From the sequence record MT682709.1: a DNA stretch of 64,000 nucleotides; one strand, given 5' to 3'. The position numbers and the translations under genes were made by a program. Shown piece by piece: positions 10,968 to 60,491 of this stretch. The notes under the pieces are model-generated. The model was not told where the DNA came from and ran no database searches. It worked only from the letters and a program-made list of their open reading frames with translations. Each line of letters begins with the position of its first letter. Positions within the stretch are counted from its first letter, which is position 1. The DNA comes from Escherichia phage vB_EcoM_SP1.

Positions 10968-11293
10968 TGACAGACACGCAACTTTTCGAATATCTTTATT
11001 TTTCGCCAAAAACTATTAAAAATAAATTGGTGAATCATTTTGAAATTTTGGCAAATAACAACGCCTTGAGCGAATTTTATCCTAAGCAATACAAATTACA
11101 AAAAGGCGTATTCAAAGGATGCAGAGTTTTGTGCACTGCTCCTAATGCAAGATTAATGAATAAAATTCCATATTTTACCATGGAATTTATTGATGGGCCT
11201 TTTAAAGGACTAATCACCCAAAGTTTAATGGCATATGATTCTGAGCCATTTTTAATTAAAGAACAATCTTGGATAAATTTATTTTCTAATTGA
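10964..11293 (+). CDS. hypothetical protein (109 aa)
   Basis: ATG 10964 overlapping previous stop (ATGATGA). Confidence 0.45.
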
Positions 11294-11301
11294 GAGGTTA
11301 T

Positions 11302-11664
11302 ATGAAAGCATATCAAATTCTTGAAGGCACGCATAAAGGTACTATTTATTTTGAAGATGGTATTCAAGCACGAATTATTGTCTCTAAAACTTTTAAAGAG
11401 GACTCTTTTGTAGACCCAGAAATTTTCTATGGTTTGCATGCCCGTGAAATTGAAATTGAAACACAACCTACAGTTAAAATTGAGGGTGGTCAACACCTGA
11501 ACGTAAACGTTCTGCGTCGTGAAACTCTGGAAGATGCAGTTAAGCATCCGGAAAAATATCCGCAGCTGACCATCCGTGTATCCGGTTATGCAGTTCGCTT
11601 TAACTCTCTGACTCCGGAACAGCAGCGCGACGTTATCGCTCGTACCTTTACTGAGAGTTTGTAA
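11302..11664 (+). CDS. autonomous glycyl-radical cofactor (GrcA/YfiD-like)
   Basis: C-terminal 60 aa ([60 protein letters not shown]) identical to recalled E. coli GrcA; ATG 11302 after GAGAGG RBS. Confidence 0.85.
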
Positions 11665-11885
11665 TGGCAAAGATAATTATTGAAGGTTCTGAAGATGTGC
11701 TAAATGCTTTCGCCGAATGGTTTAGTAATTCAGGCGAACAGCAATTTAATGAAGCGTGGAACATGGGTGATATTAATGGAATTTATCCTACGACAGAAAT
11801 TTCTGTTCAAGGATATGGAATTCATGAGCCTATTCGTTTAGTTGAATATGATTTGGGAACAGGTGAGGAAGTAAAATATGATTGA
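11664..11885 (+). CDS. hypothetical protein (73 aa)
   Basis: ATG overlapping previous stop. Confidence 0.5.
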   Translation: MAKIIIEGSEDVLNAFAEWFSNSGEQQFNEAWNMGDINGIYPTTEISVQGYGIHEPIRLVEYDLGTGEEVKYD

Positions 11886-12144
11886 AGACATTAAAGGCTA
11901 TAAGCCACATACTGACGATAAAATCAGTAAAGTGAATGCTATCAAAGATGCTGAAGTTCGTTTAGGACTTATCTTTGATGCTTTATATGATGAATTCTGG
12001 GAAGCGCTAGATAATTGTGAAGACTGCGAATTCGCGAAGAATTATGCTGAAAGTCTCGATCAGTTAACTATTGCTAAAACGAAACTCAAAGAAGCCAGTA
12101 TGTGGGCTTGTCGTGCTGTGTTCCAACCAGAGGAAAAATATTAA
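11878..12144 (+). CDS. hypothetical acidic protein (88 aa)
   Basis: ORF overlapping neighbours in operon style. Confidence 0.5.
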
Positions 12145-12422
12145 TGGCCCAATTAAGCGCAGGGTTTGGTTATGAGTATTATACTGCCCCTCGTCGTGTA
12201 TCTGTTGCTCCTAAGAAAATTCAAAGTCTTGATGATTTCCAGGAAGTAATTCGTAACGCTTTCCAGGACTATGCGCGTTATCTTAAAGAAGATTCACAGG
12301 ACTGTCTCGAAGAAGATGAAATTGCTTACTATACGCAGCGTCTTGAACAGCTTAAAAACCTACATGAGGTCCGTGCAGAAGTTTCAAAGTCTATGAATAA
12401 ATTGATTAGATTTAAAGAATAA
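12144..12422 (+). CDS. hypothetical protein (92 aa)
   Basis: ATG 12144 (TAATG overlap) after GAGGAAAAATA. Confidence 0.5.
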
Positions 12423-12424
12423 CT

Positions 12425-12454
12425 GTTTACTTTTCCTCTTGACTGTGGTATAAT
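12425..12454 (+). promoter_or_regulatory. T4-type early promoter
   Basis: GTTTAC 12425-12430, TGGTATAAT 12446-12454. Confidence 0.55.
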
Positions 12455-12481
12455 TTTTCTATCAGTTAAGAGGAGAATAAC

Positions 12482-12943
12482 ATGACTATCAACACAGAAG
12501 TTTTTATCCGTCGAAATAAGCTCCGTCGTCACTTTGAGTCGGAGTTTCGTCAAATTAACAATGAGATTCGTGAGGCATCAAAAGCAGCAGGGGTCTCATC
12601 GTTTCATCTAAAATATTCTCAACATCTTCTTGATCGTGCAATTCAACGGGAGATTGATGAGACATATGTTTTTGAATTATTCCATAAAATAAAAGACCAT
12701 GTTTTAGAAGTTAATGAATTCCTAAGTATGCCTCCGCGTCCTGACATTAATGAGGATTTTATTGATGGGGTTGAATATCGTCCTGGGCGTTTAGAAATCA
12801 CCGATGGAAATCTTTGGCTTGGATTTACAGTTTGTAAACCTAACGAGAAGTTCAAAGACCCGTCACTTCAGTGCAGGATGGCAATTATCAACAGTCGTCG
12901 TTTACCGGGAAAGGCTTCTAAAGCAGTAATTAAAACTCAATGA
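12482..12943 (+). CDS. regB: RegB endoribonuclease
   Basis: 153 aa; MTINTEVFIRRNKLRRHFESEFRQ... matches recalled T4 RegB; AGGAGAATAA RBS. Confidence 0.8.
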   Translation: MTINTEVFIRRNKLRRHFESEFRQINNEIREASKAAGVSSFHLKYSQHLLDRAIQREIDETYVFELFHKIKDHVLEVNEFLSMPPRPDINEDFIDGVEYRPGRLEITDGNLWLGFTVCKPNEKFKDPSLQCRMAIINSRRLPGKASKAVIKTQ

Positions 12944-12950
12944 GGTAAGC

Positions 12951-13496
12951 ATGAGAAAAGCACTACTCGCTGGTCTATTGGCCATTTCAATGATGGCACA
13001 TAGCTCCGAGCATACTTTCAGTAATGTCCAACTCGATAACATGCGTTACGCGTATCAATTCGGGGAACAATTTTCTAAGGATGGAAAATATAAAACACAC
13101 AAAAATATCCACAAGAGCGGATTAGGTCATATAATGGCTGCTATTTTATGGCAAGAAAGCTCTGCCGGAGTTAATTTAAAATCTAAACCAAAGCATCATG
13201 CCTATGGAATGTTCCAAAATTATTTGCCGACAATGCGAGCAAGAGTTAAGGAACTTGGTTATAATATGACCGATGCTGAAATAAAAAGAATGTTGAATAA
13301 ACGGTCCAATTCAGCTTCCTGGGCGTACATTGAACTTTCTTATTGGTTAAATATACATAAGGGTGATATAAGAAAGGCAATATCCTCTTATAATTCGGGA
13401 TGGAATGTTAAAGCAGGTTCTAAATATGCTTCTGAAGTCCTAGAAAAGGCTAACTACCTTAAAAGTAATAAACTACTGGAAATAGTAAATGACTAA
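12951..13496 (+). CDS. secreted SLT-domain lytic transglycosylase-like protein
   Basis: Signal peptide MRKALLAGLLAISMMAHS; motifs WQESS, GMFQ, SYNSGW resemble SLT family 1. Confidence 0.5.
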   Translation: MRKALLAGLLAISMMAHSSEHTFSNVQLDNMRYAYQFGEQFSKDGKYKTHKNIHKSGLGHIMAAILWQESSAGVNLKSKPKHHAYGMFQNYLPTMRARVKELGYNMTDAEIKRMLNKRSNSASWAYIELSYWLNIHKGDIRKAISSYNSGWNVKAGSKYASEVLEKANYLKSNKLLEIVND

Positions 13497-13830
13497 AATT
13501 TTGGTTTTATGTATAGGATTAATTTCATTTTCTGCGTTAGCAAATACATCATATACTGAAATTAGAGAGTATGTAAACCGTACTGCCGCGGATTATTGCG
13601 GGAAAAATAAAGCATGCCAAGCTGAATTTGCGCAGAAATTAATATATGCATATAAAGACGGAGAAAGAGATAAATCAAGCAGATACAAAAATGATACTTT
13701 ATTAAAACGATATGCTAAAAAGTGGAATACCTTAGAATGTTCAGTTGCGGAGGAGAAAGATAAAGCCGCTTGTCATTCAATGGTTGACCGTTTGGTAGAT
13801 TCTTATAATCGAGGATTGAGTACTAGATGA
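13489..13830 (+). CDS. secreted Cys-containing protein (113 aa)
   Basis: Signal peptide MTKILVLCIGLISFSALA; four Cys. Confidence 0.5.
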   Translation: MTKILVLCIGLISFSALANTSYTEIREYVNRTAADYCGKNKACQAEFAQKLIYAYKDGERDKSSRYKNDTLLKRYAKKWNTLECSVAEEKDKAACHSMVDRLVDSYNRGLSTR

Positions 13831-14306
13831 TTGTAAAATATATCAAGGGCGATATTGTCGCCCTATTTCTTCAAGGTAATATTATTGCGCATGGGTGCAA
13901 CTGCTTTCATACTATGGGTTCAGGTGTAGCAGGTCAATTAGCAAGGGCCTATCCTAAAATTTTAGAAATAGATAAAACCACTACTGAGTACGGTTCTCGT
14001 GATAAATTAGGTGATATGTCTATTGTTTTTAAACATAATCCTACAGGATTTGGTATATGCTATAACCTGTATACACAATACGAACCAGGTCCTAATCTTG
14101 ATTATGGTGCTTTAGTAAACTGCATGATAGAATTAAATCTACAGGCAGAAACCCTTTTGTTTAAACCAGTAATTTACATTCCACGCATAGGTTGTGGTAT
14201 TGCTGGCGGTGATTGGGATAAGGTTTCTAAATTAATCGACATGTTTACTCCTGATATTGATTTAATAGTGGTGGATTATGAAAGCACATTACCCGCATCC
14301 GTTTGA
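13827..14306 (+). CDS. macro-domain protein (ADP-ribose binding/processing), 159 aa
   Basis: GDIV...GNIIAHGCNCFHTMGSGVAGQL and IPRIGCGIAGGDW match the two macro-domain signature regions. Confidence 0.55.
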   Translation: MIVKYIKGDIVALFLQGNIIAHGCNCFHTMGSGVAGQLARAYPKILEIDKTTTEYGSRDKLGDMSIVFKHNPTGFGICYNLYTQYEPGPNLDYGALVNCMIELNLQAETLLFKPVIYIPRIGCGIAGGDWDKVSKLIDMFTPDIDLIVVDYESTLPASV

Positions 14307-14490
14307 TCCTAAAAACAAAGTGGAAATTATTCGTCAATGGGAACGCATTTGCCGTACTAAATGCCCAATTAATAGTCCACATGATGTAGATAAAGACTAT
14401 ATTGGAACATTCGTTGAATATACCTTTATTGATAAGAAAGGTCGTAAACAGCATGTAGAAGAATATTGCTTAAAGGTTACATGGTTATGA
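14278..14490 (+). CDS. hypothetical protein (70 aa)
   Basis: ORF overlapping previous gene end. Confidence 0.45.
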   Translation: MKAHYPHPFDPKNKVEIIRQWERICRTKCPINSPHDVDKDYIGTFVEYTFIDKKGRKQHVEEYCLKVTWL

Positions 14491-14693
14491 GCCAAATTAG
14501 CATTCTTAAAAATGCACATTGTGAAAAGTGTAAATGGCCAGTTGTTTTTGCTTTATGCAATGATGAAATGGCTTGTGATTTCGATTATTGGTGCTATTGC
14601 TCTAATAAAGGATGCATCAATCATAAAGGCGAAGGATTTTATTCAGGATTTTATCCTTATCCTGATTTCGTTAAAGAAGGTAAACCAAAATGA
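14481..14693 (+). CDS. Cys-rich small protein (putative zinc-binding)
   Basis: CEKC...CNDEMACDFDYWCYCSNKGCINH; ATG 14481 or 14487. Confidence 0.45.
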   Translation: MVMSQISILKNAHCEKCKWPVVFALCNDEMACDFDYWCYCSNKGCINHKGEGFYSGFYPYPDFVKEGKPK

Positions 14694-14863
14694 ATAGTTC
14701 TGAGTTACAATATGAAGTGTTACGTGAACTTGATAATTTAATTGAACTCGCTGTTAATAAAGGTTTTGCCATTGGAATTGGTCAAAAAGATACTGATCAT
14801 TTAACTATGGAAATATTTAAGCAAAAACGAATTATTTTAAAACTTCTGGAAATTAATATATGA
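14690..14863 (+). CDS. hypothetical small protein (57 aa)
   Basis: ATG 14690 overlapping previous stop (ATGA), ends ATGA-coupled to the next gene; below the ORF-track size cutoff. Confidence 0.45.
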   Translation: MNSSELQYEVLRELDNLIELAVNKGFAIGIGQKDTDHLTMEIFKQKRIILKLLEINI

Positions 14864-15045
14864 GTCTGAGCAAAGAACAAAAAGATAAATTGTTTGAGCT
14901 TATCCATGAACTTCTAGATGAGCATACAGAAGCAAACACCTTTTATGATGAATACGGCCCGCTATCTCCCGAACAGCAGGAAGAATTTGCTGATCGGTTT
15001 GATAAGAAAGAAAATGAATTAATAGCTTATGTGAATACGCTTTAA
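14860..15045 (+). CDS. hypothetical acidic protein (61 aa)
   Basis: ATG 14860, translationally coupled. Confidence 0.5.
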   Translation: MSLSKEQKDKLFELIHELLDEHTEANTFYDEYGPLSPEQQEEFADRFDKKENELIAYVNTL

Positions 15046-15054
15046 GAAGGTGAT

Positions 15055-15636
15055 ATGGCGAGTTTAATTTTTACTTATGCAGCAATGAATGCTGGAAAAT
15101 CTGCTTCTCTTTTGACTGCTGCGCATAATTATAAAGAACGTGGAATGAGTGTATTAGTTCTTAAGCCTGCTATTGATACTCGCGATTCTGTCTGTGAAGT
15201 CGTTTCTCGCATTGGAATTAAGCAGGAAGCGAATATTATTACGGATGATATGGATATTTTTGAGTTCTATAAATGGGCTGAAGCACAAAAAGATATTCAT
15301 TGCGTATTTGTAGATGAAGCTCAGTTTTTAAAAACTGAACAGGTACATCAATTAAGCCGAATTGTCGATACATATAATGTTCCTGTTATGGCTTATGGTC
15401 TAAGGACTGATTTCGCTGGAAAATTATTTGAAGGTTCTAAAGAACTTTTGGCGATTGCAGATAAACTTATTGAACTAAAGGCAGTTTGTCATTGCGGTAA
15501 AAAAGCGATTATGACAGCTCGATTAATGGAAGATGGAACGCCAGTTAAAGAAGGTAATCAAATCTGTATTGGTGATGAAATTTATGTTTCTTTGTGTAGA
15601 AAACATTGGAATGAATTAACTAAAAAGCTCGGTTAG
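15055..15636 (+). CDS. tk: thymidine kinase
   Basis: 193 aa; P-loop MNAGKSASLL and conserved TK core; matches T4 map position. Confidence 0.9.
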   Translation: MASLIFTYAAMNAGKSASLLTAAHNYKERGMSVLVLKPAIDTRDSVCEVVSRIGIKQEANIITDDMDIFEFYKWAEAQKDIHCVFVDEAQFLKTEQVHQLSRIVDTYNVPVMAYGLRTDFAGKLFEGSKELLAIADKLIELKAVCHCGKKAIMTARLMEDGTPVKEGNQICIGDEIYVSLCRKHWNELTKKLG

Positions 15637-15678
15637 CGCAAAAGTTATAAATAGGTTTATCTAACTAAAGGGGTATAT

Positions 15679-15891
15679 ATGCTACAATTAACTGAAAAGC
15701 AACTTCGCAATCTTACTGTTCTTCAATTAGATGAAATTCGTAGGGAAGTTGGAAATATCATTTCAGCTTTGCGTCGAGAAGTATCACTCAACCAATCTCC
15801 GGCAGACTATACTAGATTGCGAAATTTTGAAAAATACCTTGATAAAGTTAAGGCCGTGCATCGGCATAAAGTAAATACAGGACAAAAATGA
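15679..15891 (+). CDS. hypothetical protein (70 aa)
   Basis: ATG with AGGGGTATAT leader. Confidence 0.5.
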
Positions 15892-15903
15892 TAGGAGGCC
15901 TTT

Positions 15904-16197
15904 ATGGCCTTAAAAGCAACGGCATTATTTGCCATGCTAGGATTAGCGTTTGCTTTATCTCCACCAATTGAAGCGAATGTCGATCCTCATTTTGATAAAT
16001 TTATGGAATCTGGTATTAGACATGTTTATATGCTTTTTGAAAATAAAAGCGTAGAATCATCTGAACAGTTCTATAGTTTTATGCGAACGACCTATAAAAA
16101 TGACCCGTGCTCTTCCGATTTTGAATGTATAGAACGAGGCGCGGAGATGGCACAATCATACGCTAGAATTATGAACATTAAATTGGAGACTGAATGA
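15904..16197 (+). CDS. rI: lysis-inhibition regulator RI
   Basis: 97 aa; MALKATALFAMLGLAFALSPPIEANVDPHFDKFMESGIRH... matches recalled T4 RI. Confidence 0.85.
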   Translation: MALKATALFAMLGLAFALSPPIEANVDPHFDKFMESGIRHVYMLFENKSVESSEQFYSFMRTTYKNDPCSSDFECIERGAEMAQSYARIMNIKLETE

Positions 16198-16580
16198 AAT
16201 TCAGCGACTTTTCACAAAGTGGAAAACCTTCAAAGGCAGATGAATACTTAGGTTTATTAATGGCTGCACAAGCTTATTTTCATTCTGCGCATTTTGAAAC
16301 TAAAAGTTATGCTAGACACAAGGCATACGATTTTATTTTCTCTGAGTTGCCAGATTTGATTGATAAATTTGGTGAGCAGTATTTGGGGTATTCTGGTAGA
16401 AAATACACACCTTCAATTCCAGATGCTAGTAAACTTCCTACCGACACAATTAAAATGATTGATCGTATACTAGACCAATCTAACAGCATTTACAAAGAAA
16501 TGCCTCCAGCCATTCAAAGTACGATAGATGATATTACTGGAATGTTTTATCAAAGTAAATATCTTCTTTCCCTCGAATAA
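16194..16580 (+). CDS. hypothetical protein (128 aa)
   Basis: ATG overlapping rI stop (ATGA). Confidence 0.55.
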
Positions 16581-59242: not shown

Positions 59243-59268
59243 AGCTTCTGAAGTATATGGAGGCTATC

Positions 59269-59892
59269 ATGATTATTAATCTTGCAGATGTTGAACAGTT
59301 ATCTATAAAAGCTGAAAGTGTTGATTTTCAATATGATATGTATAAAAAGGTCTGTGAAAAATTTACTGACTTTGAACAGTCAGTTCTTTGGCAATGTATG
59401 GAAGCCAAAAAGAATGAAGCTCTTCATCGGCAGTTGAATAAAATCATTAAAAAGCATTTAACTAAATCGCCTTATCAGCTATATCGTGGTATATCAAAAT
59501 CGACAAAAGAACTCATTAAAGATTTACAAGTTGGAGAAGTGTTTTCAACGAACAGAGTAGATTCATTTACTACTAGTTTGCATACAGCGTGTTCTTTTTC
59601 TTATGCTGAATATTTCACTGAAATAGTACTTCGCTTAAAAACTGATAAAGCTTTTAATTACTCTGACCATATCAGCGATATTATACTTTCTTCTCCTAAT
59701 ACTGAGTTTAAGTATACATATGAAGATACTGATGGATTAGATTCAGAACGTACTGATAACTTAATGATGATTGTGCGTGAACAAGAATGGATGATTCCAA
59801 TTGGAAAGTATAAAATAACTTCTATTTCAAAAGAAAAATTACACGATTCATTTGGAACATTTAAAGTGTATGATATTGAGGTAGTTGAATGA
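59269..59892 (+). CDS. modB: ADP-ribosyltransferase ModB
   Basis: 207 aa from ATG 59269 (MIINLADVEQL...); size and order as T4 modB. Confidence 0.7.
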   Translation: MIINLADVEQLSIKAESVDFQYDMYKKVCEKFTDFEQSVLWQCMEAKKNEALHRQLNKIIKKHLTKSPYQLYRGISKSTKELIKDLQVGEVFSTNRVDSFTTSLHTACSFSYAEYFTEIVLRLKTDKAFNYSDHISDIILSSPNTEFKYTYEDTDGLDSERTDNLMMIVREQEWMIPIGKYKITSISKEKLHDSFGTFKVYDIEVVE

Positions 59893-60491
59893 AATATTCA
59901 GCAATGCAATTAAAAGATTTTAAAATCAAATCAATGGATGCATCGGTGCGTGCTTCTATTCGTGAAGAATTACTTTCTGAAGGATTTAATTTATCCGAAA
60001 TTGAACTTTTAATTCATTGTATTACTAATAAGCCAGACGACCACTCTTGGTTAAATGAAATAATCAAATCTCGTTTGGAACCAAACGATAAACCTCTTTG
60101 GAGAGGTATTCCAGTTGAGACTAAGCAAGTGTTAAATCAAGGAATTGATATTATTACATTTGATAAAGTAGTATCAGCTTCATATGATAAAAATATAGCT
60201 CTACATTTTGCTTCTGGATTAGAATACAACACACAAGTTATTTTTGAATTCAAAGCTCCTATGGTATTTAATTTCCAGGAGTATGCTATAAAAGCTCTAC
60301 GCTGTAAAGAATACAGTCCAAGTTTTAAGTTTCCGGATAGCCATCGCTATCGTAATATGGAATTAGTTTCAGATGAACAAGAAGTAATGATACCAGCTGG
60401 AAGTGTATTTAGAATTGCGGATAGATATGAGTATAAAAAGTATTCAACATACACTATCTATACTCTTGATTTTGAAGGATTTAATCTATAA
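59889..60491 (+). CDS. modA: ADP-ribosyltransferase ModA
   Basis: 200 aa; MKYSAMQLKDFKIKSMDASVRASIREELLSEGFNL...; paralogue of the preceding gene. Confidence 0.7.
   Translation: MKYSAMQLKDFKIKSMDASVRASIREELLSEGFNLSEIELLIHCITNKPDDHSWLNEIIKSRLEPNDKPLWRGIPVETKQVLNQGIDIITFDKVVSASYDKNIALHFASGLEYNTQVIFEFKAPMVFNFQEYAIKALRCKEYSPSFKFPDSHRYRNMELVSDEQEVMIPAGSVFRIADRYEYKKYSTYTIYTLDFEGFNL

What the first reader, a model, noticed from the sequence alone, without database searches (positions are those of the whole stretch)
12951..14306. Secreted SLT-like transglycosylase, a secreted protein and a macro-domain protein in a row
12951 has a signal peptide and SLT motifs (WQESS, GMFQ, SYNSGW). 13489 is a second secreted Cys-containing protein. 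13827 has macro-domain signatures (GNIIAHGCNCFHTMGSGVAGQL and IPRIGCGIAGGDW). Macro domains bind or hydrolyse ADP-ribose derivatives, so a phage copy could reverse host ADP-ribosylation defences, degrade ADP-ribose-based immune signals, or tune the phage's own ADP-ribosyltransferases (modA and modB are in this window).
Basis: partly seen in the sequence, partly recalled or inferred. Interest (0 to 1): 0.6.

Follow-up and report, generated by a model that had tools for sequence, protein, structure and literature searches.

The report
Known T4 genes vs.1, vs, tk.4
These are three already-catalogued early genes of a T4-like phage: a pair of exported cell-envelope proteins, and a macrodomain enzyme whose T4 counterpart was recently shown to protect the phage from the bacterial DarTG2 DNA-ADP-ribosylation defence.

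Summary
Three overlapping + strand genes lie at 12951-14306, with every quoted motif in place. The window is a Tequatrovirus, and the genes are T4 vs.1 (99% identical), vs (97%) and tk.4 (58%).

- **Tk.4** is a macrodomain (Pfam E 5.8e-8; AlphaFold pLDDT 94; best fold matches TARG1, Poa1p and DarG). It carries an invariant Gln where TARG1 and DarG have the catalytic Lys. That places it with SCO6735 and Bt_1257, and SCO6735 is a proven thymidine-ADP-ribose DNA hydrolase.
- **The window's tk.4** is a divergent allele inside 97-99% identical flanks.
- **Vs.1** carries the three SLT motifs and a signal peptide.
- **The "second secreted protein"** is Vs, annotated as the valyl-tRNA synthetase modifier. 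It has a conserved signal peptide (a lipobox in one clade) and four invariant Cys. It follows vs.1 directly in 44 of 44 related loci.

So vs.1 and vs look like an envelope module, which sits oddly with a cytoplasmic target. Tk.4 is an independent neighbour.

Verdict: real and essentially known; modest interest.

The parts
12951..13496 (+). vs.1: exported SLT-like (lytic transglycosylase family 1-like) protein. 181 aa; predicted mature form 163 aa, 18.8 kDa, pI 9.65.
   Evidence: 99% identical to T4 Vs.1. Pfam SLT E 7.2e-5, 22.8 bits against a cut-off of 21.3. 30 of 33 homologues hit SLT. E69, G86, F88, Q89, Y147, N148 and G150 are invariant. phrog_600.
12951..13004 (+). Predicted Sec signal peptide of Vs.1 (MRKALLAGLLAISMMAHS|SEH).
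   Evidence: Hydrophobicity and the small-residue site. The N-terminus varies in sequence but keeps its character in 33 homologues.
13155..13160 (+). Codons for Glu69-Ser70 of Vs.1, the putative catalytic Glu-Ser motif.
   Evidence: Invariant E69. Aligns with Slt70 E478-S479 in a statistically weak hhalign. Codons checked.
13489..13830 (+). vs: annotated 'valyl-tRNA synthetase modifier'. By sequence it is an exported four-helix protein with four invariant Cys. 113 aa; predicted mature form 95 aa, 11.0 kDa.
   Evidence: 97% identical to T4 Vs. phrog_1256. AlphaFold shows helices 15-37, 41-61, 68-84 and 89-110, with pLDDT >90 in the mature part and <50 for residues 1-18. Cys37/43/84/95 are invariant. 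It lies directly downstream of vs.1 in 44 of 44 loci.
13489..13542 (+). Predicted signal peptide of Vs (MTKILVLCIGLISFSALA|NTS).
   Evidence: The sequence diverges, but the basic, hydrophobic and AxA pattern is kept in all homologues. It is replaced by a lipobox (LSGC|K) in Karamvirus-type loci.
13827..14306 (+). tk.4 (adfM): single-domain macrodomain of the Gln-type ALC1-like subclass, 159 aa. Probable thymidine-ADP-ribose DNA glycohydrolase / anti-DarT2 factor.
   Evidence: Pfam Macro E 5.8e-8. AlphaFold pLDDT 94.3. Foldseek matches TARG1 at E 1.6e-10, then Poa1p, Bt_1257 and DarG. 58% identical to T4 Tk.4 at the same locus. T4 genetics.
14076..14078 (+). Codon for Gln84 of Tk.4, at the position of the catalytic Lys of TARG1 (K84) and DarG (K80) and, by transitivity, of Gln85 of SCO6735.
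   Evidence: HMMER and hhalign alignments. Invariant in 56 family members. SCO6735 Q85A/E is inactive (PMC9411070).
13870..14290 (+). Divergent allelic cassette within tk.4. DNA identity to T4 is 38-80% per 60-nt bin, against about 88-100% in the flanks.
   Evidence: Sliding identity. tblastn identity bands: 312 records at >=90% and 2351 at <60%.
13846..13864 (+). GC-rich hairpin followed by a T-rich tract, inside codons 7-13 of tk.4 and just 5' of the divergence boundary. Function unknown.
   Evidence: Terminator-like site. Fold -12.9 kcal/mol, z -3.2. Present only in close relatives, with no covariation.

Best explanation
The interval holds three translationally coupled early genes of a T4-like phage, forming two functional units.

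(1) Tk.4 is a cytoplasmic single-domain macrodomain. It most likely binds ADP-ribose attached to thymidine in single-stranded phage DNA by the host toxin DarT2 and hydrolyses the N-glycosidic bond, restoring replicable DNA. The likely mechanism is the lysine-independent, water-mediated one proposed for SCO6735, in which Gln84 positions the distal ribose. Direct inhibition of DarT2 by binding, as SCO6735 also does, may add to this. The window carries a divergent allele (58% identical to T4), exchanged as a cassette. This is what one expects of a counter-defence gene under diversifying pressure.

(2) Vs.1 and Vs are co-exported to the cell envelope. Vs.1 is a small SLT-type peptidoglycan glycosidase-like protein. 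Vs is a disulfide-stapled four-helix partner that regulates, inhibits or targets it, by analogy with Spackle and the gp5 lysozyme. Together they matter for phage fitness, especially in minimal medium.

Shown here: gene identities, folds, motifs, gene pairing, and the T4 knockout phenotypes taken from the literature. Inferred: the enzymatic activities, export itself, and any Vs.1-Vs interaction.
For: Identity and synteny with T4 vs.1/vs/tk.4.

Tk.4:
- Pfam Macro; a high-confidence macro fold matching TARG1, Poa1p, Bt_1257 and DarG; PDB profile hits to Bt_1257 at 1.6e-19, TARG1 at 3.4e-17, SCO6735 at 8.9e-16 and DarG at 5.5e-12.
- Invariant N25, G31-x-G33, G122-G128 and Q84.
- SCO6735, which has Gln at that position, cleaves DarT-made dT-ADPr, loses activity on Q85A/E, and also inhibits DarT by binding (PMC9411070).
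- T4 tk.4 is the single significant DarTG2 hit: log2FC -2.64, adjusted p 0, confirmed by a clean knockout.
- Cassette-like divergence.

Vs.1 and Vs:
- SLT motifs and Pfam hits.
- Signal peptides that vary in sequence but keep their form; a lipobox variant; four invariant Cys.
- 44 of 44 loci have vs starting -8 to +3 nt from the vs.1 stop.
- In published transposon data both genes have 10-30-fold fewer reads per site than their neighbours, and both fall further in M9 (vs log2FC -2.19, vs.1 -0.87).
Against: - No enzymology exists for any Tk.4 allele, and the DarTG2 phenotype is from the T4 allele, which is only 58% identical.
- The SLT assignment for Vs.1 is marginal. It is 1.5 bits over the Pfam cut-off, has no PDB sequence-profile hit at E<=0.01, and hhalign to the Slt70 catalytic fragment gives probability 0.7%.
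- Export of Vs and Vs.1 is predicted from simple criteria, not with SignalP and not experimentally.
- Classical genetics and biochemistry (my own recollection of Neidhardt and Marchin's work; those papers were not readable here) tie vs to stabilisation of cytoplasmic ValRS in vivo. That fits poorly with a periplasmic Vs.
- The vs.1 depletion in transposon data could be a polar effect on vs.
- The four Cys could form a zinc site rather than disulfides.
Confidence: 0.72

Rival explanations
1. Tk.4 is a small-molecule or RNA-directed ADP-ribose enzyme rather than a DNA de-ADP-ribosylase. It could be an ADP-ribose-1''-phosphate phosphatase like yeast Poa1p, an O-acetyl-ADP-ribose deacetylase, a uracil-ADPr RNA hydrolase, or a degrader of ADPr-derived immune signals (Thoeris-type). 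DarTG2 protection would then be secondary.
For: Poa1p is among the best sequence and fold matches, and its His23 aligns with the invariant His22. T4 Tk.4 has long been annotated as an 'A1pp phosphatase'. SCO6735, TARG1 and DarG also reverse U-ADPr on RNA (PMC13036486). Iyer and colleagues argue that phage macrodomains mainly target low-molecular-weight ADPr derivatives (PMC9503650).
Against: The only phenotype known for the T4 orthologue is specific to DarTG2, a DNA-thymidine ADP-ribosylating system. The closest biochemically characterised Gln-type enzyme is highly active on dT-ADPr DNA. No Thoeris or signal-degradation data exist.
Confidence: 0.15
2. Tk.4 reverses or tunes the phage's own ADP-ribosylation by Alt, ModA and ModB, erasing protein or RNA-linked ADP-ribose on host targets at a set time in infection.
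For: modA and modB are in the same genome window. SCO6735 and TARG1 also act on protein ADP-ribosylation. tk.4 is an early gene.
Against: tk.4 is dispensable on E. coli K-12 without DarTG2: 45 of 46 TA sites are hit, with no change in LB against M9. modA and modB insertions do not respond to DarTG2. Alt/ModA/ModB modify arginine, as I recall it, and ALC1-like macrodomains are not known to cleave that linkage. There is no co-variation or adjacency between tk.4 and the mod genes.
Confidence: 0.05
3. Vs is what the annotation says: a cytoplasmic factor that binds host valyl-tRNA synthetase. Its hydrophobic N-terminus is not a working export signal (or only part of the protein is exported), and its adjacency to vs.1 is mere operon organisation.
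For: The long-standing annotation. The vs knockout is defective specifically in minimal medium, where tRNA charging could be limiting. As I recall it, vs mutants fail on temperature-sensitive valS hosts. The four Cys lie in the H1-H2 and H3-H4 connections, which could face the same end of a bundle and bind zinc.
Against: Leaders that diverge in sequence but keep their form, each with an AxA-type site, occur in every homologue down to 26-29% identity. One clade has a canonical lipobox. There is no internal Met to give a leaderless form. vs is strictly and tightly coupled to another signal-peptide protein in 44 of 44 loci, and other genera carry further signal-peptide ORFs next to it. The predicted mature mass (11.0 kDa) is nearer than the precursor (13.1 kDa) to the roughly 10 kDa I recall for the purified factor, which implies processing.
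Confidence: 0.35

Closest known systems
T4 Tk.4 / AdfM (anti-DarT factor macrodomain; HIDEN-SEQ preprint 10.1101/2025.11.20.689424)
   Same: Same locus between vs and tk.3. Same length class (159 against 155 aa). 58% identity, with every family-invariant residue shared, including H22, N25, Q84 and the G-rich loop.
   Different: A divergent allele. DNA identity falls to 38-80% across about 420 nt inside 97-99% identical flanks. tk.4 overlaps tk.3 by 29 nt here and by 4 nt in T4. The DarTG2 phenotype has not been tested for this allele.
Streptomyces coelicolor SCO6735 (PDB 5E3B) and Bacteroides Bt_1257 (2FG1/2AFC): Gln-type ALC1-like macrodomains
   Same: Best PDB sequence relatives: Bt_1257 at E 1.6e-19 and SCO6735 at 8.9e-16 with the family profile. 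Gln replaces the catalytic Lys, and the TARG1 Asp is also absent. SCO6735 hydrolyses DarT-made dT-ADPr and needs Gln85 to do so.
   Different: These are cellular proteins, and SCO6735 has a longer mobile DNA-clamping loop. Tk.4 is acidic (pI 5.0), whereas the paper stresses an electropositive DNA groove in SCO6735. I did not see a residue-level alignment to SCO6735; equivalence rests on TARG1, DarG and Bt_1257 as intermediates.
DarG antitoxin macrodomain (5M3I, 5M31) and PhiKZ gp104 'AdfM' (PMC13309987)
   Same: Same fold (TM 0.74-0.78) and the same proposed job of removing DarT2's ADP-ribose from thymidine. The conserved Asn (N25 = DarG N22 = PhiKZ N23) is shared.
   Different: DarG and PhiKZ gp104 keep the 'PTK' catalytic Lys, where Tk.4 has Gln. 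Tk.4 has no DarT-binding C-terminal domain. It scores 27.8 bits on NCBIfam DarG against a cut-off of 250. The name AdfM is now used for two different macrodomain clades.
Human TARG1/OARD1 (4J5R) and yeast Poa1p (6LFR)
   Same: The top fold matches (E 1.6e-10 and 1.4e-9). Poa1p His23 aligns with Tk.4 His22.
   Different: TARG1 K84 and D125 correspond to Q84 and A126. Poa1p acts on ADP-ribose-1''-phosphate.
Family 1 lytic transglycosylases (Slt70 catalytic domain; small signal-peptide 'specialised' LTs of secretion systems such as VirB1, IpgF, EtgA and P19)
   Same: Vs.1 has the E-S, G-x-x-Q and Y-N-x-G motif triad, a Sec leader and a mature size of about 160 aa. The comparison with the specialised LTs is from my own knowledge.
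   Different: The sequence similarity is marginal. Neither activity nor fold was verified here. It is an early phage gene with no secretion apparatus attached.
T4 Spackle (Sp), the periplasmic helical inhibitor of the gp5 tail lysozyme
   Same: An analogy only: a small, exported, helical, disulfide-containing T4 early protein that partners a muralytic enzyme (my own knowledge).

Membership tests
Macro domain superfamily (PF01661) | Profile match above the curated threshold | tested here: met
   33.1 bits against a cut-off of 22, E 5.8e-8, covering profile positions 2-117 of 118.
Macro domain superfamily (PF01661) | Three-layer alpha/beta/alpha macro fold | tested here: met
   AlphaFold pLDDT 94.3, pTM 0.89. 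170 PDB matches at E<=1e-3, and the listed top matches are macrodomains or proteins built on a macrodomain scaffold. TM 0.73-0.84 to TARG1.
Macro domain superfamily (PF01661) | ADP-ribose-binding elements: the conserved Asn after beta-2, the GxG loop and a second Gly-rich diphosphate loop | tested here: met
   N25, G31-S-G33 and G122-C-G-I-A-G-G128 are invariant or nearly invariant in 56 sequences. N25 aligns with DarG N22.
Lys-type ALC1-like hydrolases (TARG1, DarG, PhiKZ AdfM) | Catalytic lysine (TARG1 K84 / DarG K80) | tested here: not met
   This position is the invariant Gln84.
Lys-type ALC1-like hydrolases (TARG1, DarG, PhiKZ AdfM) | TARG1 Asp125 of the Lys/Asp dyad | tested here: not met
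   Aligns with Ala126.
DarG antitoxin (NCBIfam NF048014) | Equivalog score and a C-terminal DarT-binding domain | tested here: not met
   27.8 bits against a cut-off of 250. The protein is 159 aa and matches only profile positions 2-142 of 338.
Gln-type ALC1-like subclass (SCO6735 / Bt_1257) | Gln at the catalytic-Lys position, with both TARG1 dyad residues absent | tested here: met
   Q84 aligns with the Gln of Bt_1257 'IGQ' and with TARG1 K84 and DarG K80. PMC9411070 equates these positions with SCO6735 Gln85.
Gln-type ALC1-like subclass (SCO6735 / Bt_1257) | Hydrolysis of thymidine-linked ADP-ribose on ssDNA | not testable with these tools
   Needs an in vitro assay. Only the genetic DarTG2 phenotype of the T4 orthologue exists.
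T4 AdfM/Tk.4 orthologue group (phrog_335) | Orthologous position and family membership | tested here: met
   Lies between vs and tk.3 as in T4. phrog_335 E 1.6e-71. 58% identical to T4 Tk.4.
T4 AdfM/Tk.4 orthologue group (phrog_335) | Protection against DarTG2 | not testable with these tools
   Shown only for the T4 allele.
SLT / family 1 lytic transglycosylase (PF01464) | Profile match above the curated threshold | tested here: met
   22.8 bits against 21.3, which is marginal. 30 of 33 homologues match at E<=0.01, the best at 1.3e-7.
SLT / family 1 lytic transglycosylase (PF01464) | Catalytic Glu-Ser, G-x-x-Q and (A)YN-x-G motifs | tested here: met
   E69 (S70 nearly invariant), G86, F88, Q89, Y147, N148 and G150 are invariant in 33 sequences. 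E69 pairs with Slt70 E478.
SLT / family 1 lytic transglycosylase (PF01464) | Goose-lysozyme-like helical fold / similarity to solved LTs | tested here: inconclusive
   No PDB hit with the family profile at E<=0.01. hhalign to the Slt70 fragment gives probability 0.7%, E 0.084.
Sec-exported proteins (SPase I or II substrates): Vs.1 and Vs | Basic n-region, hydrophobic h-region and a small-residue -3/-1 site (or lipobox), conserved across homologues | tested here: met
   Five loci have LSGC|K. These are simple criteria only, because no SignalP was available.
Sec-exported proteins (SPase I or II substrates): Vs.1 and Vs | Actual translocation and leader cleavage | not testable with these tools
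   Needs fractionation, PhoA fusions or N-terminal sequencing.
T4 Vs, valyl-tRNA synthetase modifier (phrog_1256) | Sequence membership | tested here: met
   97% identical to T4 Vs. phrog_1256 E 6.5e-40.
T4 Vs, valyl-tRNA synthetase modifier (phrog_1256) | Binding to and modification of host ValRS | not testable with these tools
   Literature claim only. The predicted export topology conflicts with a cytoplasmic target.

The most novel reading that the evidence does not exclude
The protein long annotated as the 'valyl-tRNA synthetase modifier' (Vs) is primarily an exported, disulfide-bonded envelope protein, a lipoprotein in some genera. It works as the obligate partner of the SLT-like Vs.1 as a conserved early periplasmic module of T4-like phages, for example a regulated peptidoglycan-remodelling enzyme and its inhibitor or adaptor. 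On this reading the minimal-medium defect of vs mutants reflects an envelope function rather than tRNA charging. The classical ValRS association would then be secondary, a second activity, or a gene mis-assignment.
Probability: 0.3. Interest if true: 0.6.

Novelty: already known. Interest (0 to 1): 0.3.

Why it matters
For the finding as written, it matters little. The genes are catalogued T4 genes, and the anti-DarTG2 role of the macrodomain is already published for T4. Three points could still be useful.

1. T4-type AdfM belongs to the lysine-less, Gln-type macrodomain subclass, not the DarG type. Mechanism and inhibitor work should therefore be modelled on SCO6735, and the shared name with PhiKZ AdfM hides a real difference.
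2. tk.4 is an allelic cassette with at least two deep lineages among otherwise near-identical Tequatroviruses. This gives a natural panel for asking whether alleles match different DarT2 variants.
3. Vs and Vs.1 look like a conserved exported pair, and their mutants behave alike in published transposon data. That reopens the unexplained biology of vs with a directly testable alternative.

Tried and rejected
- **Rfam:** a scan of 11000-16500 on both strands at E<=0.1 found nothing.
- **Promoter and terminator consensus scan:** counts were no higher than in shuffles, 15 against 18.1 and 4 against 2.7. The one strong hairpin (13846-13864) is confined to close relatives with no covariation, so I did not treat it as a conserved RNA element.
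- **Vs distant homology:** the exhaustive profile search found only 7 representatives. More distant members turned up only through synteny.
- **Vs.1:** the PDB profile search returned no hits, and hhalign against the Slt70 catalytic fragment was not significant.
- **Filing Tk.4 as a DarG homologue:** considered and rejected, because the catalytic Lys and the C-terminal domain are missing and the NCBIfam score is far below the cut-off.
- **A functional three-gene unit:** considered and rejected, because tk.4 follows vs directly in only 22 of 44 loci.
- **Older literature:** the primary papers on vs (PMC354445) and the T4 genome review (PMC150520) are not held. Text searches for any mention of a Vs signal peptide or periplasmic location found nothing.
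Full report
**What is there**

The window is a T4-like phage (Tequatrovirus). Positions 12400-14800 match 732 phage records, 447 of them at >=95% identity. The annotated T4 record has the same gene order on its minus strand: regB, vs.1, vs, tk.4, tk.3 ... tk.

The three ORFs of the finding sit exactly where stated:
- 12951-13496, 181 aa: T4 Vs.1, 99% identical.
- 13489-13830, 113 aa: T4 Vs, 97% identical.
- 13827-14306, 159 aa: T4 Tk.4, 58% identical.

They overlap by 8 and 4 nt, which indicates translational coupling. modB and modA are in the window at 59257-60491.

**The macrodomain (Tk.4)**

- Pfam Macro scores 33.1 bits against a cut-off of 22.
- An AlphaFold model built on 56 homologues has pLDDT 94.3.
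- Its best PDB fold matches are TARG1 (E 1.6e-10, TM 0.73-0.84), Bt_1257, Poa1p and the DarG macrodomains.

Sequence-profile alignments give a more precise placement:
- The catalytic Lys of TARG1 (K84) and DarG (K80) aligns with Gln84, which is invariant across the family.
- TARG1 Asp125 aligns with Ala126.
- The ADP-ribose-binding Asn25, the G31-x-G33 loop and the G122-G128 loop are all kept.
- I confirmed the DarG sequence used for this against PDB 5M3I.

This is the signature of the SCO6735/Bt_1257 subclass. SCO6735 has Gln85 at that position, efficiently cleaves DarT-made thymidine-ADP-ribose, is inactivated by Q85A/E, and also inhibits DarT by binding (PMC9411070). It also reverses uracil-ADPr on RNA (PMC13036486).

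Tk.4 is not a DarG equivalog. It scores 27.8 bits against a cut-off of 250 and has no C-terminal domain.

**What is already published**

The SLT similarity of vs.1 and the A1pp similarity of tk.4 were reported in 2006 (PMC1524935).

A November 2025 preprint (10.1101/2025.11.20.689424) found tk.4 to be the single significant T4 gene needed on a DarTG2 host, confirmed it with a clean knockout, and named it adfM. Its supplementary table gives 46 TA sites, a mean of 288.0 falling to 45.3 reads, log2FC -2.64 and adjusted p 0. modA and modB are unaffected.

Earlier work had shown that T4 lacking adfA and adfN still resists DarTG2 (PMC11825919).

A 2026 paper uses the same name, AdfM, for PhiKZ gp104 (PMC13309987). 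That protein is a true DarG-like macrodomain that keeps the 'PTK' lysine. The two AdfM proteins therefore belong to different clades.

**A divergent allele**

Against T4, DNA identity is 88-100% from 12000 to about 13860. It falls to 38-80% from about 13870 to 14290, returns to 95-98% in tk.3 (14340-14460), and falls again over the tk.2/tk.1 region.

By tblastn, 312 phage records carry the window-type allele at >=90% identity, 107 lie at 60-80%, and 2351 lie below 60%. The sampled T4-type Escherichia alleles sit at 57-58%.

All family-invariant residues are shared by both alleles. Cassette exchange in a counter-defence gene is a reasonable reading, but it is an inference.

**Vs.1**

Pfam SLT is only just above threshold (22.8 against 21.3 bits). 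However, 30 of 33 homologues match it. The three family 1 motifs are invariant: E69 (with S70 nearly invariant), G86/F88/Q89, and Y147/N148/G150.

The N-terminus is a typical Sec leader whose sequence varies while its form is kept.

Structure-level confirmation is missing.

**Vs, the 'second secreted protein'**

This is the annotated valyl-tRNA synthetase modifier. The evidence that it is exported:
- Every homologue, down to 26-29% identity in Karamvirus, Jiaodavirus and Serratia phages, has a basic plus hydrophobic leader ending in an AxA-type site. Five loci have a canonical lipobox, LSGC|K.
- Cys37, 43, 84 and 95 are invariant.
- AlphaFold gives four helices at pLDDT >90 and an unstructured leader at <50. 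The Cys sit at the H1-H2 and H3-H4 connections.
- No solved structure resembles it.

In 44 of 44 IMG/VR loci with a Vs.1 homologue, a Vs homologue starts -8 to +3 nt from the vs.1 stop. 42 of these have exactly four Cys; the other two are truncated ORFs. Tk.4 lies within 2.5 kb in 39 loci but directly after vs in only 22. In the rest, further small signal-peptide ORFs intervene, such as phrog_4957.

The published transposon tables also link the two genes:

| Condition | vs | vs.1 | regB | vs.3 | tk.4 |
|---|---|---|---|---|---|
| LB (reads per site) | 26.6 | 22.6 | 178.6 | 652 | 289.6 |
| M9Glc, 30 C (reads per site) | 9.9 | 9.4 | 267 | not seen | 288 |

From LB to M9, vs falls with log2FC -2.19 (adjusted p 0) and vs.1 with -0.87 (p 0.0055, adjusted p 0.155). 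A polar effect of vs.1 insertions on vs cannot be excluded.

Together these results point to an exported Vs.1-Vs module. That is hard to square with a purely cytoplasmic ValRS-binding role. From my own recollection, the purified factor was about 10 kDa. That is closer to the predicted mature 11.0 kDa than to the 13.1 kDa precursor. I could not read the primary papers, and I found no mention of this conflict in the searchable library.

**Surroundings**

No Rfam family matches the region, and consensus promoter and terminator counts are at chance level. The hairpin at 13846-13864, just before the divergence boundary, is stable (z -3.2) but lineage-specific.

**Verdict**

The additional points are the Gln-type active site, the allelic cassette, and the exported Vs.1-Vs pair that conflicts with the Vs annotation. 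These are modestly interesting leads rather than discoveries.

Noticed in passing
window 13489-13830 (vs) with 12951-13496 (vs.1); loci L006-L049: Vs, annotated as the cytoplasmic valyl-tRNA synthetase modifier, has a conserved export signal and four invariant Cys. It follows the signal-peptide SLT-like Vs.1 directly in 44 of 44 related loci. The annotation and the predicted topology conflict.
   Followed up: partly
L003:1262-1588 and L035, L036, L038, L049 (Karamvirus-type loci): The Vs homologue in this clade carries a canonical lipobox (ALSGC|K) in place of an AxA site, which predicts a lipoprotein.
   Followed up: partly
HIDEN-SEQ supplementary Data S7/S8 (T4 genes vs and vs.1): vs.1 insertions are as depleted as vs insertions relative to neighbouring genes in LB and M9Glc. 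The preprint discusses only vs. Polarity was not excluded.
   Followed up: partly
window about 13870-14290: tk.4 is a divergent allelic cassette (38-80% DNA identity to T4) inside 95-100% identical flanks. At least two deep allele classes exist among Tequatroviruses.
   Followed up: partly
window 13846-13864: An 8-bp GC-rich hairpin followed by a T-rich tract lies inside the first codons of tk.4, at the edge of the divergent cassette (-12.9 kcal/mol, z -3.2). It occurs only in close relatives. One deposited record annotates a terminator in this area.
   Followed up: partly
L003:1585-2004; comparable ORFs in L031, L032, L034, L042, L044, L047, L048: In other genera, one to three further small signal-peptide ORFs with two Cys (phrog_4957 and others) lie between vs and tk.4. 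The region downstream of vs.1 is a cluster of exported proteins.
   Followed up: no
window 14278-14306: tk.4 overlaps tk.3 (DUF7202) by 29 nt here, against 4 nt in T4, because the window allele has a longer C-terminus (…YESTLPASV).
   Followed up: no
window 14466-15045: The tk.2/tk.1 region differs from T4. It has an extra 75-aa 'Phage zinc binding domain' ORF (PF23895, 14466-14693) followed by 57- and 61-aa ORFs, with DNA identity to T4 mostly below 50%.
   Followed up: no
window 11290-11664: This is vs.6, a homologue of the autonomous glycyl-radical cofactor GrcA/YfiD (…[12 protein letters not shown]…), as annotated in T4.
   Followed up: no
literature: PMC13309987 against 10.1101/2025.11.20.689424: The name AdfM is used for two non-orthologous macrodomains. 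PhiKZ gp104 is DarG-like with the catalytic Lys; T4 Tk.4 is SCO6735-like with Gln.
   Followed up: yes
window 12426-12454: The best sigma-70-like site in the region (TTTACT-17-TATAAT with an upstream TG) lies just before regB (12482). It probably drives the regB-vs.1-vs-tk.4 early transcript.
   Followed up: no
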